DNA of 64,000 nt from an uncultured bacterium (GTDB lineage Bacteria; Omnitrophota; Omnitrophia; Omnitrophales; Aquincolibacteriaceae): contig CAYZYT010000004.1 in assembly GCA_964482725.1 (NCBI GenBank), positions 104,063 through 168,062 on the forward strand. The letters are read 5' to 3'. Position 1 is the first letter of the stretch. Each line of letters begins with the position of its first letter. Below are positions 541-54,910 of the stretch, one piece after another. The notes under the pieces are model-generated. The model did no database searches and was not told where the DNA came from. It was given only the letters and a program-made list of their open reading frames with translations. The position numbers and the translations under genes were made by a program.

Positions 541-3500
541 ATGAGGGAGAGCTCTATTTTAAAACGAGTGATTAGCCTGGTCGTCGTTGTTTGCTTCCTG
601 ACAACGAACGCGATGGCTATGCCTGGTCAAACCCTGGATGGAGGATGGGGGATGGCGGGTGTAGAAAAAGCAAAAGCCATCTCTGTTCCCTCTGGGCTCG
701 GAAGTGTCGTGGAAACATATGACGCCTCAAAACAGGATGGCGGAAGGCGGAGGGAGGATGGCAACAAACTAAAAACCGAAGCTCCGTCCACCATCCTCCA
801 TCCTTCCCCCAGATTTGTTATTTACATCCAAGACGCGCACGACTCGCTCGAGGCTCAGGAAAATATCGCCGCCATGGTCCGGCACTGCGTGAAGGAATAC
901 GGCGTCAAAACCGTCTACGAAGAAGGTTATGAAGGCCCGGTCCCGACCGACAAGCTCTTTGGATCGATCCAGGATCCGGTTCTTAAGGAAAAGATCTCTT
1001 ACTACCTGATGGACAAGCTCCGCATCGGCGGCGCGGAGTATGCGCATATCAATCGGGCGGCGGAGCCGCCCTCCCGGGAAACGGCTAACGATGAACGGTT
1101 AACGATGCGTTCAGCGTTCCCCGTTCCCCGTTCCCCGGAAAGCGATTTTCAGCTTGTAGGTGCCGATTCGATCAGCCTCCATCTTGAGAACATCCGCGCC
1201 TACGAGCAGGCGGCGAAGAACCGTACAGGCGTGACGCAAGACATTCAGCGTATCCGCAAAGAACTTCAGAAGCTGGCTGACAAGAATTTCCCGAAGGAAA
1301 TGAAAGAATGGTTGAAGCTCAAAGAACGGTATCAGAACGGACAGCTGCCGCTCGTTGAATACTTGGCAAGAACCATGAAAATCCGGGAGACGGATGGAGG
1401 ATGGAGGATGGCGAAGGGCGTAAAGCCAGGTTTGCCGCCATCCGCCATCCACCCTCCGGCCCCCAGCGTTGAAGCCCTCCTCTCCGGTGATCCGAAAGCC
1501 ATCAAACAGATCGATCTGATGAAATTGATCGGGGAGATCCAAGCTCTCGAGAACGAGATCGTTGAGGCAGGTCTCCCGGCAGAAAGGGACCGGAAAACGT
1601 ACGGTTACTTCGAGAGCGTCATGCTCCTTGAAAAACTCAACAAGATCGAGCTCAGCCACGAGGAATTCACGTTCCTCAAAGATTCGCTCGAAGGCCTCAA
1701 GACCGAAGATGTTGCTCGCTTTATCGCGAAGGAAACCGGTCACTCGCTCGTACTTTTCAAGTCTTGGGAAAATCTAATTGCCGATTCGATCCATTTCTAC
1801 GAGCTGGCGAAGAAGCGCGATCAGGCAATCGAGAAAATCCTGACCAAGACTACAGACGAGAGACTAGAGACCAGCGACAAAAAAAGTCTCCTGTCTCCAG
1901 TCTCCGGTCTCGAGTCTCCAAAAACCAAAGCGGATATCTCCGTTTTGGTTTTTGGGGGTTTCCACAAAGAAGCCATCAAGCGGATCCTGAAGGAAAAAGG
2001 CATCAGCTACGTCATTTTGTCACCCTCGATCGGAAATCCCAGCAAGCGGCATGAGGATTATTACCGAATGTTGATGGGCGGGGGGAGGCATTCGTTTGAA
2101 CGAATGCAGGGTATCGGAGGGAGGATGGAGGATGGAGTAAAACAGAAAACAAAAGGTTTCTCGCCCTCCGCCAACCGTGGCGAGAGCGTTTCTCGCCAAA
2201 GCACCCGCGCTCAATCCGTTTTCACGATGAACTACGGTTCCACCGTCGATCTTCTTTCCAAAACCGCCGCGCCATTCCGCAACGAACTTCGGCAGGATTT
2301 TATTTTAAAGATGGACCTCGCTATTCAGGGACGGTTCTTGAATGCCGGGGCTGAGGCCAAAGAACCGTCCCTGGTTGACAATTCTGCCAAACGCTCCGAA
2401 GTGCGGCAAATGTTGCAACAAGGCCCGGCAACCAAGCGCGACGGATTTATTTCCGCAGCCTGGAAAAAGCAGCGGGCGAAGCTCCTGCAAAGCGCCAATT
2501 ACCGGCTGCTGGAATACATGATTCACCAGACCGACCTTTCCGAGCGTCAGAAAAAAGGGTACCTCTATCTTTGGGAAACGATGATGCTTTTGATCCCGCT
2601 CACCAACGGAGTCAAGATCCCCGCAAGCGCTTGGGCGGTGTCTTTGGCGATCGCTCATCCTGCTTTTACGATCCTTCCGGCGATCATTTGGTGCACCTTG
2701 AGTTCGGTCCTTCGCGCCATTTTTGTGATACCGCCTTTCGCTTTTTACTATCGCTTCAGGGTCAGGGAGCTCGTGCTGGCGAACTTTCTTCCGTTCGGCG
2801 CCGCTTTTGTCGCCGTGCCGACGCAGGTGCTTGCGATCATGCGCGAAGAATACAAGCGGTTCGGGGACCTGTCTTTTAAACAGCTGGCGAAGCTTCACGA
2901 GACCGTGATCCGAAAAGTTCTTGAGGAAAATCCCAAGGATGAAGCGCTGCTCGCGCGGACTCCGGAGCTGACTTTCCGGCTGCTCGAATGGCGTTCCCGG
3001 AAGTACGGGGCCGATGCGGCAAAAGCGCTGCTGCTTCCGGCAAGGCTCACGGACCTTCTTCAAGAGGCTGACCCGAGCAAAGCTGCGTTGTCTGCACAAC
3101 GAGCAACGGCGTTAGCGAAAACGGTCATCTTCTTTCCTCCGTCAGGGTTTCACCAGGCCGGCTCAAGGGGGAGCGCTCTTTATGAAAATTCCGCGACCAT
3201 CAAGCGGCTTTACGAGAGAGTCAATCAAAAGGCGCGGGAAATTCTCGGGGATCCTGCCTTCGATATTTTTGACGTTTCCTTCAACCAGACCGAAGAGGAT
3301 TATTTGCGGGGTAACAATGCCGTCGCGGTGCATCTGGCCATTGCAACCCATCACATGGCCTTATGGGAAAGCCTGAAGGAAAAATATCCGGAAGCCGGCC
3401 GGCCCGGAGCGGTTCTTGGCGCGAGCCGGGGAGCGGATGCGGCCTATTATGCGAGCGGAGCGCTCGGCTTGGAAGATACCGTCGAGCTTGCGGTCCGGAA

Positions 3501-6500
3501 CATTCAGTTCTTGAAAAAAGCGTCCGAGCTTTCGGGTTCCCGGAGGATCGGAAGTGTTTCCCGTCTTTCCCGGGAAACATTGGAGGCCCTGCTAGCTCCG
3601 GAAGAAGGCGCGATCGCGGTTCAATATTCGAAAAATCTTTTCGCTGTTTCTTACAGGAAAGACTCTTTCGAAAAACTCGAACAAGATATCAAATCGGCGG
3701 GAGGCGTTCTCAGAAAAACGCTCCTCAGCGTGTCGAGCCATGATCCTCATCTTCTCACGCCGGAAACAAAGCCGCTCTTTGAAGAATACCAAGCGTTCCT
3801 CGAGGGATTTAAAGCGCGCATTCGTCTGCCCTCTCTGAAGCTTTTCTCGGCACTCGAGCCAGGGAAAGAGCTTAAGACGCCCGAAGACATCCTGAGCGAA
3901 GAGGTGCGTTACACCACCCAGGCGATTCCGCTGGACCGCTCTTTCGCCGACCTCTTGCAAGGAGCGGGACTGCAGAATGTTTTGGGGCTCGGCTATGAAA
4001 AGGATTATTTCATCCAGGCCCTTCAAAAGGAAGGGACGGTGTCCGGGGATGTTCGTGTGGCGCAAGCGGCCGACCTCGCGGATTATGGATCTTTTTGGAA
4101 TCTTTTCTCTCGGACAGAAAACGTAGGCGCAGCCGGTACCGTACGCTCCGAAGTGCGGGCCGCCAATGATCCGAAAGATATATTCGAAGGCGAGCCTCGC
4201 CTCTCCGTCGAGAGGCGGGATGGAAATGTTCTTTCAGGGGATGCCCGAACCCTCTCCGGCGGAAGGGTTTTGAGTTGGGATGAGGCCGTGCAGCACGCCC
4301 CGGAACTAGCCCGAAGGGTGGCTCTGAGCGGAGGCTTTGCCGGTTTTTTTACGCATCTTGGCAGAGCCTGGAATGATCCCTACAGGGAAATCGACCCAGC
4401 GATCGTCGAGCGTTATTTTGAAAACGTGCGAGCCTGGGGTCGCAAGGAAAATGGCGTCGTTTTCATTCTTGGCGGAGTTCCGGAAAAAATCGGCGAGCTT
4501 TTTACGCAGGCGGTGGTAATTCATATCCCCAATGTCCCTGACAACGATCCGATCCCGTTGATCGCCGGGAAGGAATCTTTTGATCCCATGGTTGAGCTGA
4601 TGAAAAAGATAGGTGTTCGCGGGATTCTTCCCTATGGCGGAGAGTATGCCCGCTTCGATGAACAAGGGCGGGTGTTACAAGGGTTTGATCCGGGGCTTGG
4701 TTGCGCAGGCGGACCGCTTTTTATTTTGAGCCGCTTTTTTGCTGTTCACGTATACCCTCAACTGCTTTTGGGAGGTTTGATCAATAAGCACTTGGGTGTG
4801 GCGGGTCTTCCACTTGAAACCGGAAAATATCTCACGGAACCCCGCTCGGAAATCCGGAATATCCCAGCAGGTTCGAAGCTTTCGCGACGGGAAGCTTTCC
4901 GGTGGGCGGCCTTATTCGATGAAGAGTTGAGTCAACGGGGACGCGCGCTCGTGTCGGCAGCGACGAAAGAAAAACTTTCCGTGAAGAGGGATACCCTTTT
5001 AGGGGGCGTGAATCGCTACAGCGCTCCGGAGAAAACCGCCATCCTTTCTTTTCGCGACAAGGATTCTCTGGGCCAGATCTATCTTCTTTTTCTGGATCGG
5101 GAAAACCGCCCCGCAGGCTATGGGTCTCTTTACAGCTCCGGAAAGGACAAGCCCGTCGTCGTATCCTTCCACATCTTTTCGGAATTCAGAGGCCGCGGGC
5201 TCGGCGAGGATTTCTGGAATGCGATCAAAAGCTTTCTCAAACAAAACGGCATGGGGTATGTCCCTGAGAAAGTTTACTTCCCGCCCGTTTCATGGTTTGC
5301 GGAGCGCGGTCTGGGGGACGATTTCAAAAATTCAGGCGTCCAGGAATTTCTGGTCAAAATGGGTTTTAAGCCTGTCGGAGTGAAGCCTTCCGCCACGCCC
5401 GGAGATGTGGCCTTTCTTTATAACTTGGGCGATGGGGAAAAGCCTCAGGCCGGAGTCGCGCGAAGTGAGGCCCGGTCTTCAAACGAAAGCCGGGAGCAGC
5501 TGACGGACGCAGGGATGGATCAATACGCCTTTTTTTACTGGAACAATAATAGTCAGTTCGATGCCATCCCGTACACGCTTGAAAAGCCGTTGTGGGAGTG
5601 GAGGGCCGGGGATATTTTTGTTGTCGAAAGCAGAGAAAAAACCGAGACCTATCTGCTTTTGGAGCAAACGGATTTTGGCGTTGTGACCTTTACTTCGCCT
5701 AGGGATTTTGGAGAGCCTGAAAGACGGAATATCCGTGAGTGGAGGATGGACTTTGGGCGAGATCTCGACCGGGGTGCCAGGATCACGGTCCGAAGGTATT
5801 ACGATGCCGGCAAGATCCCGACACTGCTCCATTTTGCGAATGAGGGACGTTTAGAGCCGGACACGCTCCGAGCTTATTACAAGCGGATCATTCTCGGGGT
5901 TTTGATTATCGCCGCGCCTCCGGTTTTGGGGCTGTATATGTTTGGCCTTTTAAAGCCGTGGTTCATCTCGATGGTTTTAGGAGTTCTGGCGCTGGCTCTT
6001 CTGGCGGGTCCCGTTCTTTTCCGATTTAAAGCGGGTAGTTTTATTTTCGATCTTAACCAAGCGCTTCCTTTCCGGATCCCGCCGCCGGGGACGAAACTTT
6101 CCAAGTTTGAATCCTGGAGAATGAATTTCCCGTCCTCTTCCGCCCGATCGGAAGCGCGTCTCTCGCGAGGGACAAGCCCGGAGCCTACGGCCGCCGGAGA
6201 ACAGGCTCTGGGAAAAGGTCCCCGGGAGGCGGAATGGCCCGAAGTCAGCCGCCAGTTCAGATCCCTGAATCCCTACAATATTCACAATATGCCGAGCGCC
6301 GTGCTTTCGGAATTGGCGTCGGAGATAGCGAACAAGTTAAACGTTTATGTTTTTGTCAGGAAAAATCACAGCGGCAAACGATGGATGAGTCAGGTTATGG
6401 AGATTTTGAGTCTGAGGATCGTTTATGACCAGGATATCGAAGTTTACGTGAAAGGTCGCCAGACTCCGGAAGTTTTAAACGCTACGTTGGACCTGGTTGA

Positions 6501-9500
6501 AAGGGCCATGCAGGATTGGAAAATGCTCGAGGAGTCGACGAAGGAAAATCCTCTTTATGACGCCTATCTTCGGGAGATCGACCAGATCGCGCAGGGATCT
6601 GCGACCCGTACTTTGAAAGCAGCTTATCGGACTTTTTCAGATGCGGCGATTAGCCGCGCGATCGATGCGGTGGATTATAACCACGGAGAGATCGATCCTG
6701 CGACGGGGGAAGCCAAACGGGATGAAGTCACGGATGCGGCCTTCCGCCGCTTGGACGCGCTCTATGAGGCCGTGCCTGGAGTGATCACGGTCCCGCGGAG
6801 TGAGTTCATGGGCTTCTTCGGAAAACGCCAGCCGGAATTCGCAGCGAATAAAGACAGGCTCATCAAACCCTTCTCGGCCTTGAGCGACGCAGAAAAAACC
6901 GCGCTTGTTCGGTGGAATGAAATCCGCCGTTCAGAAGCGCGGGATGTCCCGGAAGTGGCGCAGACGCAAGGGAGCCGGGAGGAGCAGGAAGACCGGTTCG
7001 TGAATGAAAAGATCTCGCTTGGTGCGGTTCCGCACGGGGAAGGTAGGCTTCTGGCCGTGATGGATGGACATGGCGGCGATGAGGTCTCGGAAATGTTGCG
7101 GGCGAATCTCGAGCGCGTTTTTAAAGACTCTATGCTCCGGAAAAACGGAGATGTCCAGCAAGCCTTACAAGAAGTTTTTGGTCGCTTACAAAAGATGGCT
7201 GCGGGATCGGAGTCGGGGTCCACGCTTTCGCTGGCCTATGTTCCGGAAGATGAAAAAGCCGCTTATGTCATGATCGTCGGCGATTCTCCGGTTTATGTCC
7301 GGAAGAACGGAAGGCTTATTTCCTTTCCGGAGCACAATCTTTCGAATCCCGTGGAAGTGATCACGCAGCAACAAAGGGCGTCGAGCGCCGGGAAAAAATT
7401 CCGCGTCGATTATGATTTTAAAAGGGAGAATGGAAAGGATCTGCTACGGAAAATCGGAACGACCGAGAATACCAGTCTTGCCATCACGCGCGCCTTCGGG
7501 AATAAATCCTTTCAAGGTCTTCTGATCGGCGAACCTTCCATTCTGAAGACCGATCTGAGCGACGCGCAGGGGCCGGTCGAGGTCCTTCTCGGCACGGATG
7601 GGATCTATGGTTTTCATGGGAATGACTCGAAGATTCAAAGAGACGCGAGGGCTGGCTATCTTCTTTCCAGAGGGACTGATGCGGCGGGGATCGTCCAGTC
7701 GGCCGGCAGCGCAAATGCTTCCGACAATGTAACGGTTCTCCTCTGGAAATTCGATCCCAACACCGTCCGCTCCGAGATGCGGCAGGACATCCATAGTCCT
7801 GCACGCACTGGTGCTGGGACCAGGGAAGTCCCAGCCGAGATGCGGCAGGACATCCATAGTCCTGCACGCACTGGTGCTGGGACCAAGGAAGTCCCAGCCG
7901 AGCTGCGCGGCGCGGAAAAGCCCGATGATCGGGAGTCCTGGACCCGGTTTTTGAATACCTATGCCCCGGCCCTGTCAGGGTTTGGCGGAACTTCCTTGGA
8001 GCAAGTCTGGAGGGAAATTTTCGAAAACACGCCGGAACATGCGCGAATCCTTGATCTGGCGACCGGGAACGGAGCGGTGGCGGGACTGGCCGCCGCCATG
8101 GCCGCGAAATTTTTTGAGGTTTGGGCCATCGATTCCGCCGAGCCCAAGGTCATTCCTCAGGGCGTCAACTTCCGAAAGGCGTCGATGGAGACATTTTCCG
8201 GGACGACGGATATGCCGGCCGATCTGGACCTTGTGACGGGACAATTTGCGATCGAATACGGAGAGACAGACCGGGTTCTCGGAGAAATTCATCGCGCCAT
8301 GAAAGCGGGAGGCAAAGGCGTTTTCATCATCCATCACAAAAACTCGTTCTGGGCGGAGCGGGCGAAATCCCTTTTGGAGCAGACAGACTGGGTGAAGAAG
8401 GCCGGGATCTTTGAAAGGATACGGCAATGGGTTCAAGATCCGTCCGAAGAGAAGCGAGGGCGATTCGAAGCGGTTCTGGACGTGCTCCGATCTGAAATAA
8501 GCAAACGAAGAGCCCAAAAAAGTGAAAATGACGTTCTGTCGAGTATTTTCCGTATCGCAAATACGACCTTTGAGGCGGTCCGGAATGGAAAACTTTCCGG
8601 ATTGGCCGAGCAGATCCAAGAAGTCGAGGAACAGTGGAACAATACGGTCTGGGTGAAGGAGCATATGATCCACGCCGCCTTTGACGGAGAGGCTATGGCC
8701 CGCTTCAAAACGGCGATTGAAGCGCGCGGTTTCCAGGTGGTAGGGATCGAGCCCTGGCAGATCCGGGGAACAATCCGGACGGAAGAGCAGGACCTGCTTG
8801 TCGGCTGGCGCGTCGAGATCCAAAAGCCCGGAATTTTATCTCCGGAAACCCGGCAGGAGAGGGATTGGATCAAGGAAGTCCAGTGGCCGGATCCGGAGGC
8901 GGCGCTTCGAGCGAATGATGGGCCATTCCATATCCCAAGCAAAGAGGATGAGGCGCTACAGATTTTTCTCGACTCCGGAAAGGGGACGCCGGACTATGCG
9001 TTAAACCAAAAAGCGGAATACCTCGGGAAATTATTAAATATCCTCGGAGCGTTGGACAAGACGCGTCTTTGGTGGGGAACCGGAAACGAAGAAAACTGGT
9101 CTGGCTGGGTGAAACATTCTTTCGCGAATTATTTGAACAACCTGCTGGCCCTCGTGGGGTTTTCTTTGCGAAACGAAGATCCTTTGTCGGAACAATCCGC
9201 CAAGGACCTCAAAGAGCAAATAGAATTTGCGGATGCGATATGGAGCGCCCGCAAGGAGCTCGCGGCATCTGTCGCCAACAATTTTAAGAACTACCCCGAA
9301 ATACTTCAGCCGGCTCCGGAGGGCAAAGGTCTCTCAAAGGAAAATACGTTTTCGAGGATCGAACTTAACTTTGCGTTCCCGCACAAAGTGTTTGTCGCAA
9401 GTCCCAATGCTGAGCGGAATCGCGCCATTTATGCGGAGGCCCTCCGCCGCATGGAAGGCCCCTTTCAGGAGATCCTCAAGCTGGCCCGGGAGCAACTTTC

Positions 9501-12500
9501 GGAGTATGAAAAAGGAACTGCCTTGCCCGCGGAACCTAAAAAAGATAAACGCTCCGAGGTTCGTGATCCCCAGGCATTCTTGGAAAACACCGGTCCGGTC
9601 GATGCCGAGCAGTTTGAACGGATGATCCTCGGAAAAAGATTCGATGACCTTGCTCCGGAACAGCGGGCTCGTTTTATCGAGTTTATTCGTTCCAGGAATC
9701 TGCATAATTTGGCGCCTTCTTTACAACGTTTGATCCTCGACCACGTTCAGCGTCACGCCGGTGAAGAGAACGACGAGATGAAAGCTCTCTGGAGCTGCAC
9801 GCTTCGCCTTGAACCGGGCAGCGCGGAGATCTATCGCCAAGAAGTTAGCATCCTCCGGAGTTCCGTGGCGCCGCTTGCAAAAAAAGTGTCTGAAGGGTAC
9901 TCGATCGTGACGGTCGAAGAATCCTCGAAAGGGATCCGGACTCAAACAAATCTCTCGAAAACAAAGACCGAAGATCCTTCTGCGGAGGTTTGGGAATTTC
10001 TGATCCCGGACCAAGTGGAGACCTCGGGCGGTGTTTATACGATCGCGAAACCGGGAACGGACGCCGTGGTGATCGGCTCCGGGGGTTCCGGAAGCGTGGT
10101 CATCCGGGCTCGAAAACAGGACGGTACGCCCGTGGCCATGAAGATCATTAAAGAAGACGGGAAGAGTATGCACCGCTTTTTCCTCGAATACCTGATGACG
10201 CTTCGCTTCAAAGGCGATCCGAACATTATTCAGGTCTATGATTCCGGCCGCTATGTGGTCCAGGCCCAGAGATTTTATTTTATTATGGAAGAATACGGAG
10301 AACGCACGCTTGCCGACGAGGTGCGGGCTCGTTCTAAGAAGCTTGGGGAAGGCGTGGAAATTTTCTCCCCGCCCGAAAGACGTAAGATCGCCAACGAGAT
10401 GATCGACATTCTGCAGACCTTGTACGCCGCGCGGATCCTGCACCGGGACGTCAAAGCTGACAATCTGTTCTATTCGGGAGGACGTTTGAAGCTGGGGGAT
10501 TTCGGGATCGCCCGCTGCTTGCCCCAGGAAAAAGATGAAATAAATTCCGATGCGCTTGAGGGAACACCGACGCATATCCCCGTCGAATCCTTTGCCGGTG
10601 CGAGCGGGTTCTACAACGATCTTTACGAGTTTGCGATGACCATGGCTTTTCTGGATCCCTCGACTCTCGCAGACGATTTCGGCGCGACGACCCGTGGTCA
10701 GATGCGGAGGGTGTCCGTTCCCACCAGCATGTTCACGAAGAACCTCGCCGGCTTGGCCCAAACGGATGCGGCGTACAAAAAATTCTACGAGATGCGGGAA
10801 TTCAGCAAAAAAACCCTGGCCGGAACGCTTGTCAGGCTTGAACGGAGCCAAGATCCATTTACCCAGCTTGTCGTACGACCGATCCTTGACCGGGAACATT
10901 ACCAGGACTCTCCGCGCAATGCACAGGAGCTGGATCAACTGGCCGCCTCTGTTTTTTTTATCGAAAAGACAACAGATCTGATCCGCGAAGGGCAGCCGGC
11001 AGAAGCGCGGAGGTATGTCGCAGCGTTGCTTGGAGAGGGGAGCACGTTCGCTACTTATCCGATCGTTCGGGAAAAAGTCGAAGAACTCCGTCTTGCCGCG
11101 GAAGCAAGTTCAGTTCGTTCCGAGATGAGGAACGGCAAGACCTCAACAAAGCCAGCCATGATCGAGCGGAAGGCCGAGGGAAAAGGAAGGATCTGGATCG
11201 CCGAACTGAAATATCCGAGAAAAATGCTGTCTCTGGGGGTGCGTTATGCCGGGAAAACGCTCAAGCTCTATCCTTATGATGAGGACTGGAAGAAAGGGAC
11301 GCTGATCTTTGACGAAGAAGAGCCGATCGCTGTTTATGTCTCCCAAGAGGATCTTTTTTCCGTGCTTGAAGAGGAGACAACCACCGACGCGAAAGGACGT
11401 TTTATCCGTGAGGGTTTGCGTTATAACCTCGGTGAAAATAAGGCCCATCTAAAGATCAGCCTCCGGCCTTTTGAAACGCCGGACTGGAAGACCGGTGTGA
11501 GGATTTTTGAAGGTCAGGCCGAGATCGCTTATCACGACGCGAAAAGGAACCGCACGGTCAACCTGATCTCCATCGCGCCCTTTAGACGTTCGGGGGCTCG
11601 GGAGGTCGGGACAGCGGACCTCCGGGACGTGCCTCACGTGCACCGGAAAGATCTCTGGAAGACGGGTTTGTATGGGAGCGAAGAGTTAAAGCAGATCCTA
11701 AAAGCCATGCTTGAGTCGGAAGACATTGTTTTCGATGAGCGGAGATATAAGGTTAGCCTTTATGCGCTTCCGGCCGAAGAGCTTGTTGCGCTGATGGATT
11801 ATCTTCGCGCTCAAAGGATCCGCGTTAACGGATATTTATATCGGGAACTTCTTCAAGAACATCAGGAAGACATGGCCCGGTATATCGAAAAGACGAGAGC
11901 CGCGGGTAGCGATCTGAAATATCTCGGTGCCCCTGCCTACCAGTTGTATGCCGATCTTTTGCCAGCCGCCGAAGAAGTGAACCCGAGCCTTTATGTTGAT
12001 AGCCAGCCGCCCCGATATCACGACGACGTCTTCAGCTCTCTAAAAAAAGAATACAGGGCACAGCTTCAAGAGATCCGGCGGCAGGGAGACAAGATCGGAC
12101 TGGCGGTTCACGGAGTGCGCGAGTGGAAATGGCGCGACATGTCCGGGCAAAGCCGGGACCGGGAGATCGGCATGGATGACGGCAAAATGAGATTTTTGAA
12201 CGTGCTCTTGGAGGGCAGGATCCGGAATTTTACGATGCCCTTCTCTTTTTCCAAGCTGAAGGTGGATGTCGGTTATCTGGATACGGAACACGACACGAAT
12301 TTCAGCGACCGGGGAGATGCCGGGACCTATGGCCCTTACTATATCCTTCTGGACCCGAGGTGGAGGCATGACGCGCAGGGAGGCATCGGCGAAGAGCACC
12401 ATAAATATTATCTTGTGCCGAATGACTCGATGCGAAAGTTCCTGACCGGCGGGCTCGAACAGGCTCTTGCGGGCGGGCTGATCGATCCGGAGCGGTTGGA

Positions 12501-15500
12501 GGTTTTGAAAAGCAAGATCATGACCTATCGCGAGTATGCCGACATCCTCTCCGGGCGCGGCGCAGCGAGCCGGGCGGAATTGCGGGAAGAGAAGGCTCCG
12601 AACCGTGAACGAAAAATGGAAAAAATCCGGCAGCGTCCCTCGAGGCGTTCAGACGGGAAAGAAAGTAAATGGGATGTCTTTGACCGGTTCGTGCAGAAGG
12701 TGAACCTTCTTAATTTTGAAGAGGTCAAGCAAACGGAAGAGCTTAAGAGCTTGAGCAAAAAGCGGGAGCTTCTTGTAAGTTTTGGGATCCCGGAGGCTGC
12801 GGAAGTCGAAGCAAAATATCTCATAGGCGCGATCGGCAAGCTATTCAAGAAAATGCAAGCCGAAGGGGCGGGCCGCCAGCAACCTATTATTTGGACGGAT
12901 TTTTTAAGCTACGGCGGGCAGGGGCGATATCTGACGGCTTACAAGGATGAAAATCCCGAAGGCGGTTGGATCGTCAAGGTCGCGGCCAGCGAAGAAAGCA
13001 GCCGGTACATGGATCTCTATTCTCTGGAGGGGACGCGTCTGGCTCTAGAGCGCCTCGGCGGCGGTCTCGCAGCCAGCACGATGATCATCGACGGGAGAAA
13101 GAACGGAAAGGATTTCTTTTTCCGGTCGGGAAAGCGTGCGATGTATGAAAGCGTCGCGATCGTTCAGGAAAAGTTGTTACCCCTCGTGGAATATTTGAAG
13201 CAGGTCGGTCGGCGCGGCGCCTCGGACCGGGAAGTTTCTGAGGCGATCGGGTACATGGAAAAATACAAACAGCTTGCGATCGCGATGTACCGGCGGGGCA
13301 TTGTGGATGCGGACAATTTTAACGTGGTCGGCAACTATGGTATCCGGCCCTCGGACAAAAGCCTCGCTATTTTTGATCTCGGCGATCTTACCGACAGCTT
13401 AAGGAGCGCACAATCCTTTGTCGCGGAACTGGACAGCTTTAATGAGGATAGGGCGGATGATTCCGCCGAGATCGACGGGGTCCTGCTGGATCCGAAAGTC
13501 TCTCGGGCGTTTACGGACAACCCCTTCCGGACAGAGGATTTTGTTCTTCATGGCAAGGATCTGTTCGGTTCGGAATTCGATCCCAAAAAACATGGCATGA
13601 CCTTTCCGTTATCGGAAGACGAGGTCCGTCGCATGTTCCTGGGGAGTTCGATCCGGGAGCCCTCTCAAGACCGTCGCTCAGAAATTCGAATTTCTGGAGC
13701 GAACAAAAAGCTAGCGCGAAAGGAAGACCGTCGCGCTGAACTGCGCGATGCAGAGACCTGGAGAGGGCGCGGGGCCGAATCGCCGCTCCGGCTGGAGAAG
13801 GTGACATTATTAAATGAACTGGCAGCAAAAGTCCCCGAAGGGACGAAACGTACTTTCAGAGCGCTGGCCAATGCTTCCGGCGGCCGTTACTCCTATTCCG
13901 CGATCCGCGGCATAGCTGTGTATTATGCGATCACTCCGGAAGAGGGAGGTTTTGAGCCGGAAGAAATATGGACAAGAAAAGAGTGGGTTGAAAATCTCCC
14001 GAAGGGAGCCCGCGCGCTGAGTAGGGGGCAAAGGCCTACTGCCGAAAACATTTCAGCCGCGTTAAAGGAAAAATTCGGCATCGTTAGATCGCCTGCCCAG
14101 ATCCGCGAAGCCCTATCTTTTCATAAGATCACTTATCGAGAAGTCGAAATGGTTCGCGATCTCAGCATTGATCCAAGAAACGATGACGCATGGAAGGAGT
14201 TTTTTAAAAGGCATGTCCAAACTCTAGGGCCCGGGCTTCACGCTGTTTCGGAGCTCGCAGAAAAACTTTCGTCAGTCGCGGCGAATAAAAAACTCGAGGC
14301 GGGGTTTATCGGGATCGGCGCAAGCCAGATCGAAAGGATCATGATCTTACACCGTCTTTCTTACGAAGAACTGGGTCTGAAGAAGGTCAGGCCTGCTCCG
14401 AAAACGCAGGACGAATGGATTTTGCTGGTCCGAGAACTGGTCGACAAAATCCCGGCGGGAGTAAAAAAGACGCTTGGCAATGCAGCTCAGGCGTCCGGGG
14501 GTCTATTCACTTACAGCCGGCTCTATCACGCCATGAGCGACCATGATATTTCGTACAACGAGGTCGGACTTGAAACGCCTCGGAGACAACCTCGCCGGTC
14601 GCGCGCCGACTGGCTGGCTTACTTCAAGGAATTGGCGGCGGCTATTCCGGAAGGTTTCCGTAAGGTGCTCGGCAACGCCGCGGAATTTTCCGAAGGCGCT
14701 GTGACGTTTTCTCAACTTCTCAAGGCCAAAGTGAATCATGGATTCTCTTACGAAGAGATCGGGCTGGAGCGTTTTTACCAGATCCTGGGCCTGGTTCCGG
14801 AATCGGTGGATTGGCAGATCCAGACAAGTTATGAAAAAGGCCGCAGCGGAAAAGGGCGATGGGAAACGGTGAGGACTAAGGCCGTCGGACCTCGCATACT
14901 CGGTCCCGACGAAGAAGCTTCCCGCCAGGAACGAATGGACCACCTCGAAAAAACGATCGTCCTTTTAGGCTCTGACGCCGGGAAAATGATCGATCAGGTG
15001 CTGGATGCCTTGGCTCAGGGCGCGAGCATGGACAATCTTTCCGATCTATCGGAAAAAAGCGACGTTGATCCGCAGGCGCTTCGAGAAATGATGGGTCGTC
15101 TCCGGAAAATCTACCACCGGCTTGTTGCCGGCCAACCGATCCCTCAGGAGTGGATCGGTGAAAGTGAAACCCAAGATTACCCCACAGGTGCACCTACGGG
15201 GTTGTCTCAGGGAGTTCTTTCGAGGTCCGAAGTGCGGAATGGGCAGGCGTTGAAAATGTGGGGAGCCTGGAAAACGAAAGAAGAAGCGTTGATCGATCTG
15301 GAGCTTAAAAAATCGCAGGCGATGCTCGCGATGCATCCGTGGAGCTTCCTCGCCTTGCTTAACGGGAAAGAGAATCCGAGGCTTTCGGGTGAGATCGGAG
15401 AGCTTTTGAACCGTTGTTTTGAGATGCTGGCGTGGGCGGTTGGGCAATTTCACGGCCAGCCGGTCGAGGTGCTTCAAATGGAAGAGGCCCGGAAGCTGGA

Positions 15501-18500
15501 AAGCGCGGCCCGGCAGTACCGTGTTCTTCTTGAGGTCTTGCACGGGCTCGACAAAGGGAAGCTCCCGTTCGACAAAATTGTCAGCCAGAACGACTTTGAA
15601 ACCGTCCGGCAATACACTTTTTCAGACAACGGAACCCTGTATCCGGTCCGCGTCATCTGCCGGTGGGAATCCGCCGAAGCAAAAGAGGCAAGGCTTGCCG
15701 TGAATGTCCTTTTGCCGCTGGGGTCCTCTTCTGAGGAGGACATCGCCCGGCACAAGAAGGGGCCCGGGCTTCCGCCGCTTTCCGACAGGCAAATGATCTC
15801 TCTGCGGATCGATTGGAGCAATAGGACCGAACGGGCGGAAATGGATATTTCCGGAGGTTCAAACGAAAAACTTCCTTTTGCGCGTAGGCATTGGGTCCTG
15901 AACGACTTGTCCCGACAGGCGACTTTCAGGAACTTTGTTCTTGGGATGGACCAAAAGCTCGCGAAGCTTTCCTCGGCTTCTGCGCCCGTTCCATCTGAAA
16001 AACATCGTTCTGAGATGAGGGAAGTCTTTAAGCTTGGGGGCGAGTTCACGCGCGAGACGATGGAGCGGATGATCCGCGAGCTGGCCGGACAACAGAAAGT
16101 CGATTTTGAGACGGAGGAGGGCGACAGGTTCACCGTCCATTACACTTTTCAGGATCAAGGCTATCAACAGGGCTGGTACCAGCCTTTCCGCGCCGAAGGT
16201 GAACGTTTCCGGCTCCTACTGACCCGGCATGTTGGCGCGAGCGAAGATCAGGTTGCTTTTGCGAATGCCAAACTTGTCGAACGGGACGGGAAGAAAGTCG
16301 CTGTCATGGATCATGGGTTCGGGAAAGAAGAGATCCTGAAGGGAAAGAGCATTTTAATGGATCGGGAAGTCGTCGCTTTGCAGACCGAGGACCGGTATGT
16401 TGGGTTGTTCAAAGGGATCGGGACGGCGATGATGCAACTCGCATGCGGCGTGGCACGAGCCCATGGGGCGGATGTGCTTTACGCCGAATCCATTGCTAGC
16501 AAGGAATTGGAATCCTTTTATGTTCAGGCCGGCGGTGTCATGGAAGATTATCAGGCGGTTTTTGAGGTTATGGATTCCTCCGAGGACGGGAACGCTGCTT
16601 CTACTTATTTCAGCACGAGACAACGCGCAAAATTCGATTTAAAAAGCCTTCCTCAGCTGGAACGTTTCCAGATTGAGAAGATTAGTTCCGACGCAAAACT
16701 TTCCGGGCACCGCGTACTCGCCTTATCCGACGAGGTGCAGAAGCATAATCCAAGCCCTGCGGATCTCCCAAGCAATTTTGAGATGAATCGTTCGGAAGTG
16801 CGGGGGAAGAATATTAATCGGAAAATTGTTGTTGCGATGACGCCGGAAGCGGAAAAACGTGCCCGGCGACTCCAGCAAGCGCTTAAACTTTTGGCGACGA
16901 CGTATCCTGAAGGTGTGACTTATGAGCTTGTTGCCAAAACCATGAACGAGCTTCCCAGGGATCCGGAACCTTCTCTTTCGTGGTATGCGCTCGCGAAATG
17001 GACCGAAGCCCATCCGGACCTTCCTTCGGTCGTTTTATTGAGAAAAATGCAGCGGGCTTCTTCGGCGCTCCAGGACGCGCTGAGCGATCTTGTAAAGCGA
17101 CCCGCAAAACAGAATTGGACCCCAGATCTTAAAAAGCTCCGGCACGACCTTCTTGGGAAAGCCCTGGAGTTGAACCTCCACGGAGCTTTTGTTTTTCATC
17201 CCTACACGGACGAGCGATACGTTTGGCGCGTCCTGGGATTCATGGAAGATGGGTGGAAAGCGGTATTTGAGGACATTCAAAGCAAAGAGGGCCAACTCTT
17301 GATCACGCTGCGTCTTGAAAAAGAAGGCGAGGAAGTTTTCCTGAGAACCTTTGCTGTAGGAAAAGAGAAACGGGCTTTGCTGGGCGTGCTCGGCAAAAAA
17401 GGTCAGCCGACAAAACAAGCCCTGGATATTCTGCCGCTGGAAGACAAGACCATTTATGGAGAAGAGAAAAAAGCCTACCGCATTCTTTCGGAACTTGTCG
17501 GCAGGCCGGAAGGTTACGCCTGGCAGGCGGATGAAGATAAATTAAACGATTTGATCGGGGAGGAGCTCGGCGAAGTTTCTCCACGAGGTGTTTCGAGCTT
17601 TTCGCCAGCCAAGTATTTCGCCTACCGGTGGTTTCTTTTGGGAACGCGTGAAGCGGGATGGAGCGCCAGGATCATGGAGGCGGGGATCCGGAGCGCCGCG
17701 CCTGTTTTTAAAGTTAAATTTTACAGAGAGGACGGGAAAAAAGAAGCTTTCGAAAAGGAATATCAACTAGGGCCTAAGCGGAAAGATCTGAAATATACCG
17801 GCCCCCGGAAAAACACGGCGCCTCTTTCCATTTGGGACATCGTGCCATTGAATGATGCGGGAGTTTTTGCGCCGGAACGACCCGCCCAAGAAAAAATAAC
17901 GGAAGCGCTCGCGGCCCTTCTGGCGGAAGGTGCGGTGGTCTCGCAGGCATTACTTGCCGAAAAAGCGGATGTTGGGGAGAACACCGTTGTCCGCATCAAA
18001 AAAGAAAACGCGGTTCTCGGGAAAAAGATCGATGAAGCCGTAGCGACCTCGCTTTATAAGAAGATCGAAGCTTTTCTCAAAGATCATCCCGGGGCCAAGC
18101 AAAAAGATATTGCGGAAGCGATCGGCGTGAGCCCGAGTGCGATCGTCTACTATAAGAGCACGAATGAAGAAATCCGCAAATTGATCGAAGTGAATCAGCC
18201 GGTTCAGGATAAAAAAGCTCTCTCGCCAGGAAAGGGGTCTCAGACGAAGGAAACAAGATCTGCCCCAAAGACAGAAGCACCGCGGAAAGAAAAAAAGATC
18301 CCTCAGCCCAGAGTTTCCCCCGCGCAAGACAAGCCCGCCATTCCCGAGGAGAAACCTGAAGAGGGAAAAGCGGCAAAACCCACGGAACTCAAGGGTGTCA
18401 CCGCCGTTCCCGAGATCCAAACGTACGCCATGCTTGATGAGGGGATTGTGACGCTTTTTGAAAGACGGTACGCTCCGATTTTGGAAGAACTTTCGGACCA

Positions 18501-21985: not shown

Positions 21986-22157
21986 ACGTACGGCGTACGG
22001 AGTACGGCGAATAGAAAACATCTTGCATAACGCCTTACCCCGTACGCGATGCGTTCTGTGATATCCCTTAACAACATCAGGGAAATAGCGTACACTTCTC
22101 GAGCTTTTAACAACAAAGGAGGAATTCGCTCATCGCCGTACTCCGTACGCCGTACAT
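21986..22157. repeat. 25-bp near-perfect inverted repeat (24/25 match) flanking a 122-bp core, between the giant gene and ychF.
   Basis: Left arm cacgtacggcgtacggagtacggcg (21986-22010). Right arm cgccgtactccgtacgccgtacatg (22133-22157). Each arm contains a GTACGG triplet in direct repeat. The core contains ttaacaaca twice and an AAGGAGG. Confidence 0.7.
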
Positions 22158-28598: not shown

Positions 28599-28668
28599 CG
28601 GATGGCGGATGGCGAAAAGCAAAAAACAAAAGGTTTGACGCCATCCTCCATCCGCCATCCTCCATCCG
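28599..28668 (+). repeat. GGATGG/CCATCC hairpin element, copy D, at the cysE-rnhA junction. It supplies the rnhA ATG and the first ~22 codons.
   Basis: cggatggcggatggcg-aaaagcaaaaaacaaaaggtttga-cgccatcctccatccgccatcctccatccg. Translated MADGEKQKTKGLTPSSIRHPPSG. Confidence 0.7.
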
Positions 28669-54873: not shown

Positions 54874-54910
54874 TGCAGGGACGGTTCTCCCGAAAGAGAA
54901 CCGTCCCTGA
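54874..54910 (+). terminator. Hairpin terminator after the porin gene.
   Basis: gggacggttctc-ccgaaa-gagaaccgtccc. Confidence 0.5.

What the first reader, a model, noticed from the sequence alone, without database searches (positions are those of the whole stretch)
735..2178. A GGATGG/CCATCC hairpin element inserted three times in frame in the 5' region of the giant gene
Three ~65-bp imperfect palindromes lie at 735-805, 1392-1458 and 2115-2178. Their arms have the form GGATGG(A/C)GGATGG ... CCATCC(T/G)CCATCC around an A-rich loop. All are read in the same frame and give similar peptides (DGx+EDGxKxKT...PSxxHP). This resembles the in-frame spread of Rickettsia palindromic elements into protein-coding genes. 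Here the elements add ~22-aa disordered Gly/Pro/Lys loops to a secreted region.
Basis: seen in the sequence. Interest (0 to 1): 0.6.

Follow-up and report, generated by a model that had tools for sequence, protein, structure and literature searches.

The report
Heptamer-stem hairpin repeats inside genes
Small palindromic DNA repeats whose stems are built of tandem 7-base units (GGATGGN and others) sit in frame in the start of a giant Omnitrophota gene and at a neighbouring gene junction, where they are read as floppy protein loops. This is a new variant of the "selfish palindromes inside genes" known from Rickettsia, and the same GGATGG hairpin also occurs in frame in genes of several other phyla.

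Summary
Copies at 735-805 and 1389-1460 are strong hairpins (z about -5). The copy at 2115-2178 has lost its right arm (z -0.7). That copy holds the stop codon of cysE and the start codon plus 26 N-terminal residues of RNase H.

The defining feature is that the stems are tandem heptamers. The same 1.9 kb also carries (GTTCCCC)n and (GAGACNN)n hairpins, and a (GTACGGN)3 hairpin brackets the spacer after the giant gene.

In a 50-protein alignment, the query's only low-occupancy segments are these five hairpins. AlphaFold gives them low confidence within a confident fold.

At the cysE/rnhA junction, a strain with 97% identical flanks carries a different (GGCCACAA)n hairpin. Other relatives carry a (CAACGNG)n hairpin, a short GGATGA hairpin, or none.

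GGATGG hairpins of this form lie in frame in ValRS, in an NRPS A domain, and in ORFs read as RecG, PriA and a PKS, in other phyla.

Best reading: these are non-autonomous REP/RPE-like palindromes that are translated where tolerated and remodelled by 7-nt slippage. The mobilising mechanism is unknown. I class it as a new variant of a known kind.

The parts
541..21984 (+). Giant ORF (7147 aa) that hosts the in-frame hairpins. It has an N-terminal ~520-aa domain shared by many Omnitrophota proteins, followed by acyltransferase-like, HPr, PP2C, protein kinase and HATPase_c regions.
   Evidence: ORF list; Pfam; 66 homologues, and every one that carries a source name is Candidatus Omnitrophota/Omnitrophica.
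635..700 (+). Decayed GGATGG element. The left arm (GGATGGN)3 at 636-655 and the A-rich loop are kept. The right arm is degenerate.
   Evidence: Fold z is -1.5. The copy aligns with the other copies.
735..805 (+). GGATGG element 1, in frame (aa 65-89, DGGRRREDGNKLKTEAPSTILHP).
   Evidence: Fold z is -5.0. The segment aa 61-85 is covered by fewer than 35% of 49 homologues. pLDDT dips to 53-73.
1075..1140 (+). Heptamer hairpin of another unit: a right arm (GTTCCCC)3 paired with an AACGNNN-type left arm. It is in frame (aa 179-200).
   Evidence: Fold z is -3.5. The segment aa 175-201 is absent from most homologues, between the invariant GGAEYAHINR and DFxLIGADS blocks. pLDDT is 46-49.
1389..1460 (+). 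GGATGG element 2: (GGATGGA)3, a loop containing GGCGTAAAGCC, then (GCCATCC)2-3. It is in frame (aa 284-307).
   Evidence: Fold z is -5.2. Occupancy is low at aa 291-302. A decayed homologue lies at the same site in L118. The same arm-loop junction occurs in L020 and L064.
1854..1918 (+). Heptamer hairpin (GAGACNN)n / (GTCTCCN)5 around an A7 loop, in frame (aa 439-459).
   Evidence: Fold z is -3.5. Occupancy is low at aa 441-444 and 450-466. pLDDT is 48-58.
2115..2178 (+). GGATGG element 3. The left arm and loop are intact and the right arm has decayed. It lies next to a remnant of an older CTCG/CGAG hairpin (2158-2200) that L118 still carries.
   Evidence: Fold z is -0.7. The loop is homologous to that of the 28.6-kb copy. 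Occupancy is low at aa 525-532. L118 comparison.
2326..2373 (+). Member of a second, non-heptamer hairpin family (CAGGGACGGTTCTT, 20-nt loop, AAGAACCGTCCCTG), in frame in the giant gene.
   Evidence: Fold z is -4.6.
21602..21655 (+). Second in-frame copy of the CAGGGACGGTTCTC hairpin, near the 3' end of the giant gene.
   Evidence: Fold z is -7.0.
21986..22156 (+). (GTACGGN)3 heptamer arms with 22 nt of perfect complementarity. They bracket the whole spacer between the giant gene stop and ychF, including the ychF ribosome-binding site. A degenerate inner right arm lies at 22031-22054.
   Evidence: Fold z is -7.6.
28590..28668 (+). Best-preserved GGATGG element, at the cysE/rnhA junction. It contains the cysE stop (TAA 28596-28598), the rnhA start (ATG 28602, inside a GGATGG unit) and the codons for the first ~22 residues of RNase H.
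   Evidence: Fold z is -6.4. The RNase H/RVT_3 domain starts at residue 27-30. An identical copy is present in an independent assembly, L117. The cassette is replaced in close relatives.
28602..29075 (+). RNase H gene whose start codon and N-terminal extension come from the element.
   Evidence: Close relatives have RNase H of 142 aa (P0068), 137 aa or 144 aa without this peptide.
54876..54909 (+). Intergenic copy of the CAGGGACGGTTCTC hairpin, 29 nt after the stop of a porin gene.
   Evidence: Fold z is -7.7.

Best explanation
The hairpins are copies of small, non-autonomous palindromic repeats, comparable to REP elements or Rickettsia palindromic elements (RPE). Their stems consist of tandem 7-nt units, here mostly GGATGGN paired with NCCATCC.

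Shown:
- Copies are dispersed in Omnitrophota genomes, in short spacers, at gene junctions and inside genes.
- In-gene copies survive where they keep the reading frame and lie in tolerated loops. The GGATGGN/NCCATCC arms cannot encode a stop codon in any of the six frames.
- The N-terminal domain of this protein family has about five such permissive sites, and the window's gene has a hairpin at each.

Inferred:
- The elements are transcribed and translated with the gene and yield Gly/Trp/Arg/Asp ... Lys-rich ... Pro/Ser/Ile/His loops of about 22 residues with no fixed structure.
- The palindromy is a property of the DNA and not of the protein or of the sense mRNA.
- After arrival, the stems are remodelled in place by slipped-strand duplication or loss of 7-nt or 14-nt units, independently in the two arms. 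Whole cassettes are exchanged between strains at hot spots, probably by recombination through conserved flanks or by re-insertion.
- The enzyme or process that first disperses the elements is unknown.
For: Insertion
- The only query segments covered by fewer than 35% of 49 homologues are aa 61-85, 175-201, 291-302, 450-466 and 525-532. These are the five hairpins, and they lie between invariant blocks.
- AlphaFold (pTM 0.74) gives pLDDT above 90 for the core and 41-73 at these segments.

Dispersal
- The copy at 28590-28668 shares arms and loop with el.3.
- The loop family GAAAAG...AAAGGTTT..CGCC recurs in L207 and L122. The arm-loop junction GGATGGCGTAAAG recurs in the ValRS gene of L020, a giant ORF in L064 and the UvrC start in L129.

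Presence/absence and turnover at species level
- L242 has flanks 96.8-97.7% identical to the window but carries a 160-nt (GGCCACAA)n hairpin in place of the 114-nt GGATGG cassette.
- L245 carries a (CAACGNG)n hairpin. L243 and L118 carry a short unexpanded GGATGA hairpin. L247 has no hairpin. The P0083-type locus has only a 19-nt spacer.

Decay, as expected for non-functional DNA
- The in-gene sites of L118 keep inserts of similar length that fold no better than shuffles (z -0.1, -0.25, -0.02).

DNA-level symmetry
- Antisense RNA folds as well as or better than sense RNA in most elements, and G-U pairs are not enriched on the sense strand.

Slippage
- The arms have unequal unit numbers. Units are identical within an arm but mismatched at the N position between arms. 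The right arm of the 28.6-kb copy is an exact 14-nt duplication.

Generality
- GGATGG hairpins lie in frame in ValRS, as a 22-aa insertion relative to 1GAX, and in an NRPS A domain, as a ~20-aa insertion relative to 6MFY.
- They also lie in frame in long ORFs that I read by eye as RecG, PriA (two copies), a PKS and others.
- By a GC3-periodicity test, 19 of 87 (22%) lie inside genes in frame, against 44% of random positions.

Other points
- In-frame fusion of small palindromic repeats to genes is established for RPE, BRE and RUP (PMC3184786).
- Seven of the nine genic hairpins lie in the first 1.86 kb of about 57 kb of coding DNA (binomial 1e-9). Permissive sites, local spread or both would produce such a cluster.
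Against: - No mobilising gene was found. There is no transposase or Y1/HUH nuclease among the Pfam-scanned ORFs of the window. No target-site duplication or common target sequence is visible at the copy borders.
- The copies within the window are not near-identical, so no recent transposition event is caught directly.
- The junction hairpin keeps a significant structure in lineages only 80-84% identical (L118 z -4.5), and in three contexts it holds a start codon. This could mean that some copies have acquired a function.
- The clustering at the 5' end of the gene is also what a functional mRNA element would show.
- Translation through the elements is inferred only from the open frame.
- The reason why units of 7 nt (and 8 nt) dominate remains unexplained.
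Confidence: 0.6

Rival explanations
1. The hairpins are selected mRNA or translation-control structures. Stems in the 5' part of a 21-kb message, and stems that enclose stop and start codons at gene junctions, would tune ribosome loading, pausing, translational coupling or RNA processing. (GGATGGA)n reads as GGAGG, 7 nt, then ATG, which is a Shine-Dalgarno sequence plus start codon. The opposite arm carries CCUCC, so the stem would sequester SD-like sequence.
For: - Hairpins cluster strongly at the 5' end of the giant gene.
- A junction hairpin holding the rnhA start codon is kept in the window, L243 and L118 despite 80-84% flank identity.
- The same arrangement occurs at the UvrC start in L129 and in the purS-purQ spacer in L169 and L195.
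- The GTACGG stem encloses the ychF ribosome-binding site.
Against: - The orthologous in-gene sites in L118 have lost all excess structure.
- Most homologues have no insert at these sites at all.
- Sense RNA is not favoured over antisense RNA, and G-U pairs are not enriched.
- Only the N=A variant contains GGAGG, whereas the T, C and G variants are equally common in other genomes.
- There is no Rfam match.
- Some close relatives have no hairpin at the cysE/rnhA junction.
Confidence: 0.15
2. There is no mobile element. Each hairpin grew in place at a permissive site from a short seed, by heptamer slippage and intrastrand template switching. Similarity between copies would then be convergent.
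For: - The window's 28.6-kb copy looks like an expansion of the single-unit GGATGA stem seen in L118 and L243.
- The arms expand independently.
- More than 100 different heptamer units exist in genomes that carry such hairpins.
- Different units occupy the same sites in different homologues, for example (CAACGNA)n in L120 and (AGACCAC)n in L121.
Against: - Loop sequences, which slippage cannot generate, are shared between unlinked copies. Examples are el.3 and the 28.6-kb copy, the window copy and L207, and el.2 with L020 and L064 in unrelated genes of different genomes.
- In L242, the cassette is replaced wholesale between 97% identical flanks.
Confidence: 0.17
3. The heptamer tracts form a contingency (phase-variation) locus. 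Gain or loss of one 7-nt unit shifts the frame and switches the giant surface protein on or off, as heptanucleotide repeats do in the neuO coding region and in hmw promoters.
For: - Heptamer repeats lie in the 5' coding region of a very large, probably exported protein.
- Heptanucleotide phase variation has precedents in the literature.
Against: - The tracts have only 2-4 units and are often imperfect.
- They come as inverted pairs.
- The same elements sit in housekeeping genes such as ValRS and in non-coding spacers.
- The independent assembly L117 has the identical copy number.
Confidence: 0.04
4. The segments are ordinary low-complexity linker peptides selected at the protein level, and the DNA palindromy is incidental.
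For: - The peptides are Gly/Pro/Lys-rich and are predicted to be disordered.
Against: - Complementary arms with z down to -6 cannot be a by-product of coding.
- The same element occurs in non-coding DNA and spans a stop-start junction.
- The segments are absent from most homologues.
Confidence: 0.02

Closest known systems
Rickettsia palindromic elements (RPE; Ogata et al. 2000, as summarised in PMC3184786)
   Same: - Both are short palindromic repeats without a transposase gene.
- Both are found in intergenic DNA and inserted in frame in many unrelated protein-coding genes, including housekeeping enzymes.
- Both are read as extra surface peptides at sites tolerated by the fold.
   Different: - RPEs are about 105-146 bp (PMC3184786). 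Their description as unique-sequence arms in defined sequence families of Rickettsia is from my recollection.
- The elements here are 65-115 bp, and their stems are tandem 7-nt units of many kinds.
- They occur in Omnitrophota and, as GGATGG hairpins, in at least eight other phylum-level groups.
- No sequence relationship to RPEs was shown.
Inverted pairs of heptameric simple-sequence repeats in Xanthomonas (GGGAATC) and Nostoc (Rehm et al. 2015, PMC4692102); cyanobacterial STRR heptamers
   Same: - Both involve tandem heptanucleotide units.
- In Xanthomonas, 70-75 cases per genome show two tracts in convergent orientation close together, able to form stem-loops.
- The number of units is variable in both.
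   Different: - Those repeats are G-quadruplex-forming (GGG tracts), prefer four units, and are over-represented in non-coding DNA and under-represented in ORFs.
- They were not described as in-frame insertions.
- The units here have only GG runs, and in this window the elements are mostly inside a gene.
REP/REPIN elements mobilised by RAYT (Y1) transposases (PMC3116915, PMC3733652)
   Same: - Both are short imperfect palindromes present in many copies, typically after genes or within operon spacers.
- Loci differ between strains.
   Different: - Most REPs carry a GTAG or CGTC tag at one end (PMC3733652). By my recollection they are extragenic and come with a RAYT gene.
- The elements here have no such tag.
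- No RAYT was seen in the window.
- Many copies here are intragenic.
MIRU-type and BRE/RUP-type repeats fused to reading frames (PMC3184786)
   Same: - These are small repeats in operon spacers or fused to the 5' or 3' ends of genes.
- The 28.6-kb copy behaves in the same way, supplying the cysE stop and the rnhA start.
   Different: - They have different sequences and no heptamer stems.
- They occur in different taxa.
Heptanucleotide phase-variation tracts (neuO coding region, hmw1A/hmw2A promoters)
   Same: - Both are 7-nt tandem repeats at the 5' end of genes for surface-related functions.
   Different: - Those tracts are long, uninterrupted and single-stranded in sense. They are not paired with an inverted copy.
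- The tracts here have only 2-4 units.

Membership tests
Rickettsia palindromic elements (RPE) | Palindromic repeat found in frame within protein-coding genes as well as in intergenic DNA | tested here: met
   In-frame copies lie at 735-805, 1389-1460 and 2115-2178. A junction copy lies at 28590-28668. Related copies lie in spacers in L169 and L207.
Rickettsia palindromic elements (RPE) | Length of about 105-146 bp and membership of one of the RPE sequence families | tested here: not met
   The elements are 65-115 bp with heptamer-repeat stems. No RPE consensus sequence was available for a direct alignment, so the sequence part of this feature was judged on anatomy only.
REP / REPIN (RAYT-associated) | Conserved GTAG or CGTC tetranucleotide tag at one end of the palindrome | tested here: not met
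   The copy borders read ...ACA|GGATGG...GAC|GGATGG...ATC|GGAGGG and ...AAC|GGATAAC. No shared GTAG or CGTC is present.
REP / REPIN (RAYT-associated) | A cognate Y1 (RAYT) transposase gene in the genome | tested here: inconclusive
   No transposase domain was found in the Pfam-scanned ORFs of the 64-kb window. The rest of the genome could not be searched.
MITE | Terminal inverted repeats flanked by a target-site duplication, with empty and filled sites differing by the element | tested here: inconclusive
   Inverted arms are present. No direct repeat flanks any copy. The closest relative, L242, shows replacement by another hairpin rather than a clean empty site.
Inverted heptameric SSR pairs (Xanthomonas/Nostoc type) | Two tracts of tandem heptamers in convergent orientation within a short distance | tested here: met
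   Period-7 arrays pair up at 735/784, 1392/1435, 1854/1885, 21986/22134 and 28590/28639.
Inverted heptameric SSR pairs (Xanthomonas/Nostoc type) | G-quadruplex-capable unit (a run of at least three G per unit, about four units) and depletion from ORFs | tested here: not met
   The units GGATGGN, GAGACNN and GTACGGN lack GGG runs, and the arms have 2-4 units. Seven of nine genic hairpins lie within one gene.
Phase-variable contingency locus | Long uninterrupted tract, with unit number varying between cells or strains and switching the frame | tested here: not met
   The tracts have 2.3-5.1 copies at 76-100% match. The independent assembly L117 has an identical copy. Read-level heterogeneity could not be tested.
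Intrinsic terminator | GC-rich stem followed by a U tract on the transcribed strand | tested here: not met
   The consensus scan of 1-3000 calls none of the elements on the plus strand. No T run follows 28668 or 54909.
Any curated RNA family (Rfam 15) | Match at or above the gathering score | tested here: not met
   There are no matches in the whole window.

The most novel reading that the evidence does not exclude
Hairpins with tandem 7-nt (and 8-nt) stems would form a distinct, cross-phylum class of actively remodelling micro-elements with a dedicated, still unknown writing mechanism. That mechanism would add short units to both arms of a palindrome and swap whole cassettes at hot spots. The class would then be a general source of loop insertions in conserved enzymes (ValRS, NRPS and PKS, and ORFs read as RecG and PriA) and of new start codons and N-termini, in Omnitrophota, Planctomycetota, Chloroflexota, Gemmatimonadota, Acidobacteriota, Verrucomicrobiota and others.
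Probability: 0.3. Interest if true: 0.8.

Novelty: new variant of a known kind. Interest (0 to 1): 0.6.

Why it matters
- In-frame palindromic repeats are usually treated as a curiosity of Rickettsia and a few other lineages. Here the same behaviour appears in an uncultured phylum, Omnitrophota.
- With the identical GGATGG heptamer stem, it also appears in conserved enzymes of at least eight other phylum-level groups.
- It adds a structural rule, stems made of 7-nt units, that links this behaviour to the long-noted but unexplained excess of heptameric repeats in bacterial genomes.
- The cysE/rnhA junction shows different hairpin cassettes between 97% identical flanks. That makes it a natural system for studying how such elements turn over.
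- In practice, these elements create spurious low-complexity "domains", alter predicted start codons, and can mislead gene callers and homology searches in metagenomes.

Tried and rejected
- **Metagenome pattern scan.** The scan for GGATGGNGGATGGCGNAAAG was too permissive. Most of the 120 hits are ordinary coding sequence, and only about 20 are true hairpins. No copy-number statistics were drawn from it.
- **Stop-codon avoidance.** I tested whether heptamer units are selected to be stop-free on both strands. The result was 77 of 113 against 69.5 expected, which is only weak enrichment (p about 0.03). Octamer units run the other way. I do not use this as evidence.
- **Fold of the N-terminal domain.** A Foldseek search of the model against the PDB gave nothing significant. 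The best E-value was 0.12, with faint erythromycin-esterase/BcR135 hits.
- **Rfam.** There are no matches in the window.
- **Sense versus antisense folding.** No bias was found, so an mRNA-specific structure is not supported.
- **"All copies in the same frame" as evidence of selection.** I rejected this. It is automatic for the heptamer arms, and for the loops the chance probability is about 0.06.
- **Literature.** Searches for the arm sequences, for heptamer or heptanucleotide hairpins, and for Omnitrophota repeats found no description of these elements.
- **Restriction-site idea.** GGATG is the FokI-type site and GTCTC the BsmAI-type site. This comes from memory only and I have no supporting evidence, so I dropped it.
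- **P0083 locus.** DNA for the shortest junction was not retrievable, so a clean empty site could not be read.
Full report
**1. What is in the sequence**

The window opens with a 7147-aa ORF (541-21984, plus strand). Its Pfam matches are acyltransferase-like, HPr, PP2C, protein kinase and HATPase_c regions.

The finding describes three imperfect palindromes in its first 1.7 kb. GGATGGNGGATGG with up to one mismatch occurs 17 times in the window, against 0.5 expected. The matches pair up as a G-rich arm, a loop and a C-rich arm.

Folding against 200 dinucleotide-preserving shuffles gave these results:

| Region | z-score | Comment |
|---|---|---|
| 730-808 (el.1) | -5.0 | strong hairpin |
| 1385-1465 (el.2) | -5.2 | strong hairpin |
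| 2112-2180 (el.3) | -0.7 | left arm and loop kept, right arm decayed |

- A decayed copy lies at 635-700 (z -1.5).
- The best-preserved copy lies at 28590-28668 (z -6.4).

**2. The overlooked rule: the stems are tandem heptamers**

A scan for short-period arrays found 12 arrays of period 7. Every other period from 4 to 12 gave 0-2. Tandem Repeats Finder reports the same arrays independently.

The arrays come as inverted pairs, and not only of GGATGGN:
- (GTTCCCC)3 with an AACGNNN-type partner at 1075-1140 (z -3.5).
- (GAGACNN)n / (GTCTCCN)5 at 1854-1918 (z -3.5).
- (GTACGGN)3 with 22 perfectly complementary bases at 21988-22009 and 22134-22155. This pair encloses the whole spacer between the giant gene and ychF (z -7.6).

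A second, non-heptamer family (CAGGGACGGTTCTC, 14-bp perfect stems) occurs three times:
- Twice in frame in the giant gene, at 2326-2373 and 21602-21655.
- Once 29 nt after the stop of a porin gene, at 54876-54909.

Because 7 is coprime to 3, three heptamers read as the same cyclic heptapeptide in every frame. These peptides are GWRMEDG for GGATGGA and PSSILHP for TCCATCC. Only the loops carry frame information, and two of three plus-strand frames are open in each copy. The GGATGGN/NCCATCC arms cannot encode a stop codon in any of the six frames, which can be read directly from the sequence.

**3. Are they insertions?**

The first 900 residues have 66 homologues. Every homologue that carries a source name is Candidatus Omnitrophota or Omnitrophica.

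I aligned the first 620 residues with 49 homologues (A4). The only query segments covered by fewer than 35% of the homologues are the following:

| Residues | Nucleotides |
|---|---|
| 61-85 | 721-795 |
| 175-201 | 1063-1143 |
| 291-302 | 1411-1446 |
| 450-466 (plus 441-444) | 1888-1938 |
| 525-532 | 2113-2136 |

These are exactly the five hairpins. They lie between invariant blocks such as IYIQDAHDSLEAQENIA, GGAEYAHINR | DFxLIGADS and VFGGFHKE.

An AlphaFold model built from A4 (mean pLDDT 76.5, pTM 0.74) has a core above 90. It dips to 41-73 at the element-encoded stretches, which are modelled as coil. The peptides therefore behave as added, unstructured loops.

Some homologues carry other inserts at the same sites, and their DNA shows heptamer arrays of different units:
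- (CAACGNA)n and (CGAGTCN)n arrays, five to six in all, in L120. Four of them were folded and form hairpins (z -1.6 to -3.6).
- (AGACCAC)n in L121.

**4. Age and decay**

L118 is a syntenic relative with the gene order N-terminal-domain gene, ychF, cysE, rnhA, TauE, M17 peptidase. By eye, its conserved blocks are roughly 70% identical to the window at the protein level. Overall identity in the alignment is 48%.

At the el.2, GAGAC and el.3 sites it has inserts of nearly the same length but unrelated peptide sequence. At the DNA level, the el.2 site retains a recognisable remnant: GACGTAAAATCGGCCTTGCGCCATCC in L118 against GGGCGTAAAGCCAGGTTTGCCGCCATCC in the window.

None of the three L118 sites folds better than shuffles (z -0.1, -0.25, -0.02). 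Two conclusions follow:
- The occupied sites are old, and the structure is not maintained in one lineage. This argues against a conserved RNA function inside the gene.
- The window's arms are near-perfect repeats and must have been regenerated in place.

The manner of regeneration can be read from the sequence. Units are identical within an arm but mismatched at the N position between arms: left GGATGGA x3 against right GCCATCC x2 in el.2. Unit numbers differ between arms. The right arm of the 28.6-kb copy is an exact duplication of a 14-nt unit. This is the signature of slipped-strand duplication acting on each arm separately.

**5. The copy at the cysE/rnhA junction and its turnover**

The 28.6-kb copy contains three coding features:
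- The TAA stop of the upstream serine O-acetyltransferase (28596-28598).
- The ATG of RNase H (28602, inside a GGATGG unit).
- The first ~22 codons of RNase H. The RNase H/RVT_3 domain begins only at residue 27-30.

The same sequence is present in an independent Logan assembly, L117.

Among CysE proteins that are 88% or more identical, the tails after HHKG differ completely. Reading the junction DNA in relatives gave this picture:

| Locus | Flank identity to window | Junction content |
|---|---|---|
| L242 | 96.8-97.7% | 160-nt cassette with a (GGCCACAA)n hairpin; RNase H of 142 aa starting MTDHSNKIKKGKIY |
| L245 / L246 | 84-87% | (CAACGNG)n hairpin |
| L243 / L244 / L118 / L119 | 80-84% | short, unexpanded GGATGA-type hairpin, clearly homologous to the window's (L118 z -4.5) |
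| L247 | 81-82% | no hairpin |
| P0083-type locus | DNA not available | 19-nt spacer and an RNase H of 137 aa |

This site is therefore a hot spot. Whole hairpin cassettes are exchanged within species-level divergence, and in the window's lineage a single GGATGA unit has been expanded to 2-4 GGATGGN units per arm.

**6. Dispersal**

The loop of el.3 (GTAAAACAGAAAACAAAAGGTTTCTCGCC) is homologous to that of the junction copy (GAAAAGCAAAAAACAAAAGGTTTGACGCC).

From the metagenome scan:
- L207 carries GAAAAGTAAAATAAAGGTTTAGCGCC between two ORFs.
- L122 carries a related copy upstream of dnaJ.
- L129, L130 and L226 carry a copy that again follows an upstream stop and supplies ATG and an N-terminal extension, this time to UvrC.
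- L169 and L195 carry one in the purS-purQ spacer.

The el.2-type arm-loop junction GGATGGCGTAAAG is found in the ValRS gene of another Omnitrophica MAG (L020) and in a giant ORF of a third (L064).

Slippage cannot create shared loops in unlinked loci and different genomes, so some form of dispersal is required. No transposase is encoded in the window. No target-site duplication or common target is visible, so the mechanism remains unknown.

**7. The same hairpin in other phyla**

These come from Gemmatimonadota, Planctomycetota, Verrucomicrobiota, Acidobacteriota, Chloroflexota, Omnitrophota, Bacteroidota, a Peribacteria MAG and a Rickettsiales MAG.

Loops differ between genomes but are shared within a genome. 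N is usually constant within an element.

Many copies are inside real genes, in frame:
- ValRS in L020, as a 22-residue insertion relative to 1GAX.
- An NRPS adenylation domain in L018, as a ~20-residue insertion between NPF and RLYRxGD relative to LgrA 6MFY.
- The equivalent position of a second NRPS adenylation domain in L103, read from the translation.
- Long ORFs that I read by eye as RecG (L006), PriA with two copies (L007), a hydantoinase/oxoprolinase (L033), a molybdenum hydroxylase (L063), a trehalose synthase (L090) and a PKS (L093).

I applied a stringent test requiring the same open frame for at least 205 nt on both sides, with GC3 periodicity in that frame. By this test, 19 of 87 elements (22%) are in frame inside genes, against 44% of random positions. 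The elements are thus depleted only about two-fold from gene interiors.

In the flanks of these loci, non-GGATGG tandem arrays are also concentrated at two periods:
- Period 7: 152 arrays, 76 with an inverted partner.
- Period 8: 65 arrays, 42 with an inverted partner.
- Periods 5, 6 and 9-12 are rare and almost never paired.

More than 100 distinct heptamer units occur.

**8. RNA or DNA?**

Antisense RNA folds as well as or better than sense RNA in most elements, and G-U pairs are not enriched on the sense strand. Rfam has no match in the window. The terminator scan calls none of the elements on the coding strand. The symmetry is therefore best explained at the DNA level.

**9. Most likely mechanism**

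Shown:
- The elements are palindromic repeats with heptamer stems.
- They sit at sites that are absent from most homologues and predicted to be unstructured.
- They have relatives in unlinked loci and in other genomes.
- They differ between near-identical strains.
- They decay in a related lineage.

Inferred:
- They are non-autonomous, REP/RPE-like selfish or neutral DNA.
- In-gene copies persist where the frame is kept and the loop is tolerated. This is helped by arms that cannot encode stop codons.
- They are translated.
- The stems expand and contract by slippage of 7- or 14-nt units.
- Cassettes are swapped by recombination or re-insertion.

Seven of the nine genic hairpins fall within 1.86 kb (binomial 1e-9). 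This clustering probably reflects several permissive loops in this domain, possibly together with local spread.

Rival explanations:
- **A selected mRNA or translation-control role.** It is most plausible for the junction copies, which hold start codons and keep their structure across lineages. (GGATGGA)n also reads as SD-7 nt-ATG opposite a CCUCC arm.
- **Purely in-place growth without mobility.** Shared loops argue against it.
- **Phase variation.** The tracts are too short, they are paired, and the same elements also occur in housekeeping genes.
- **A protein-level linker.** The non-coding copies contradict it.

**10. Comparison with known elements**

In behaviour, the closest known system is the Rickettsia palindromic element. 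More generally, they resemble small repeats fused in frame to genes (RPE, BRE, RUP; PMC3184786).

In anatomy, the closest are the inverted pairs of GGGAATC heptamers noted in Xanthomonas (70-75 per genome) and the heptameric repeats of Nostoc (PMC4692102). Those were interpreted as G-quadruplex motifs and are depleted from ORFs.

The elements fail the REP tag test (no GTAG or CGTC), the RPE length and anatomy test and the terminator test. The MITE test (no TSD seen) and the RAYT test were inconclusive.

I found no description of GGATGG-type or Omnitrophota heptamer hairpins. This includes the preprint on Omnitrophota giant genes, which contains none of the words palindrome, hairpin or tandem repeat.

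**11. Verdict**

- This is a new variant of a known kind.
- The cross-phylum recurrence, the 7-nt rule and the cassette turnover make it more interesting than a single-gene curiosity.
- The mobilising mechanism and any function are open.

Noticed in passing
window 28567-28680 compared with L242 662-821, L245 769-900, L243 2153-2251 and L247 680-771: The cysE/rnhA junction is a hot spot for hairpin cassettes. Completely different cassettes occupy it in strains whose flanks are 97% down to 81% identical: GGATGG heptamers, GGCCACAA octamers, CAACGNG heptamers, or none. Each cassette changes the CysE tail and the RNase H start.
   Followed up: yes
window 7772-7907: A 63-nt tandem repeat (2.2 copies, 97% matches) lies inside the giant gene. 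This is a 21-residue protein repeat unrelated to the hairpins.
   Followed up: no
window 59429-59555: The pstB-phoU spacer is bracketed by 16-nt complementary arms (CCCCGTTAGAGACTGG / CCTGTCTCTAACGGGG). It contains an inner perfect hairpin, GGAAGCGCTTTTGAAAAGCGCTTCC, just before the phoU ribosome-binding site. The architecture matches the GTACGG bracket after the giant gene.
   Followed up: partly
window 541-2100 (aa 1-520) and homologues P0001-P0066: The N-terminal ~520-aa domain is a module shared by many Omnitrophota proteins. It is fused to very different C-terminal parts, including methyltransferase, NUDIX, glycosyltransferase, radical SAM, phosphoglucomutase and WD40 regions. It has no Pfam match. 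AlphaFold folds it confidently, but it has no significant PDB neighbour, only faint erythromycin-esterase/BcR135 hits.
   Followed up: partly
window 541-21984 compared with L118 134-2881; window 23757-27758: The syntenic relative L118 has a gene of about 915+ aa in place of the window's 7147-aa gene. In relatives, ychF is followed directly by cysE. The window has an extra 1333-aa BACON/Ig-like-domain gene between them.
   Followed up: no
L103 (Chloroflexia OY969916.1), whole 7.1-kb NRPS ORF: Besides the GGATGG hairpin, the NRPS ORF contains many other repeat-derived peptides: EQRTKNKEQ, SQFSILNSQFS, TPPADDERAYRTT x4 and TTDNGQRTTDN. The AACGGAC unit behind NGQRTT also occurs in the Omnitrophota homologue P0003 (L120).
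   Followed up: partly
window 636-655, 1392-1411, 2123-2135: (GGATGGA)n reads as GGAGG, 7 nt, then ATG. This is an array of consensus Shine-Dalgarno sequences with start codons, and the opposite arm carries CCUCC. In the window (rnhA), L118 (rnhA) and L129 (uvrC), the ATG of a GGATG unit is the only available start codon of the downstream gene.
   Followed up: partly
116 genome-contig loci (L001-L116): Tandem arrays with an inverted partner are concentrated at period 7 and, unexpectedly, at period 8 (42 of 65 arrays paired). They are almost absent at periods 5, 6 and 9-12. I have no explanation for these two unit lengths.
   Followed up: partly
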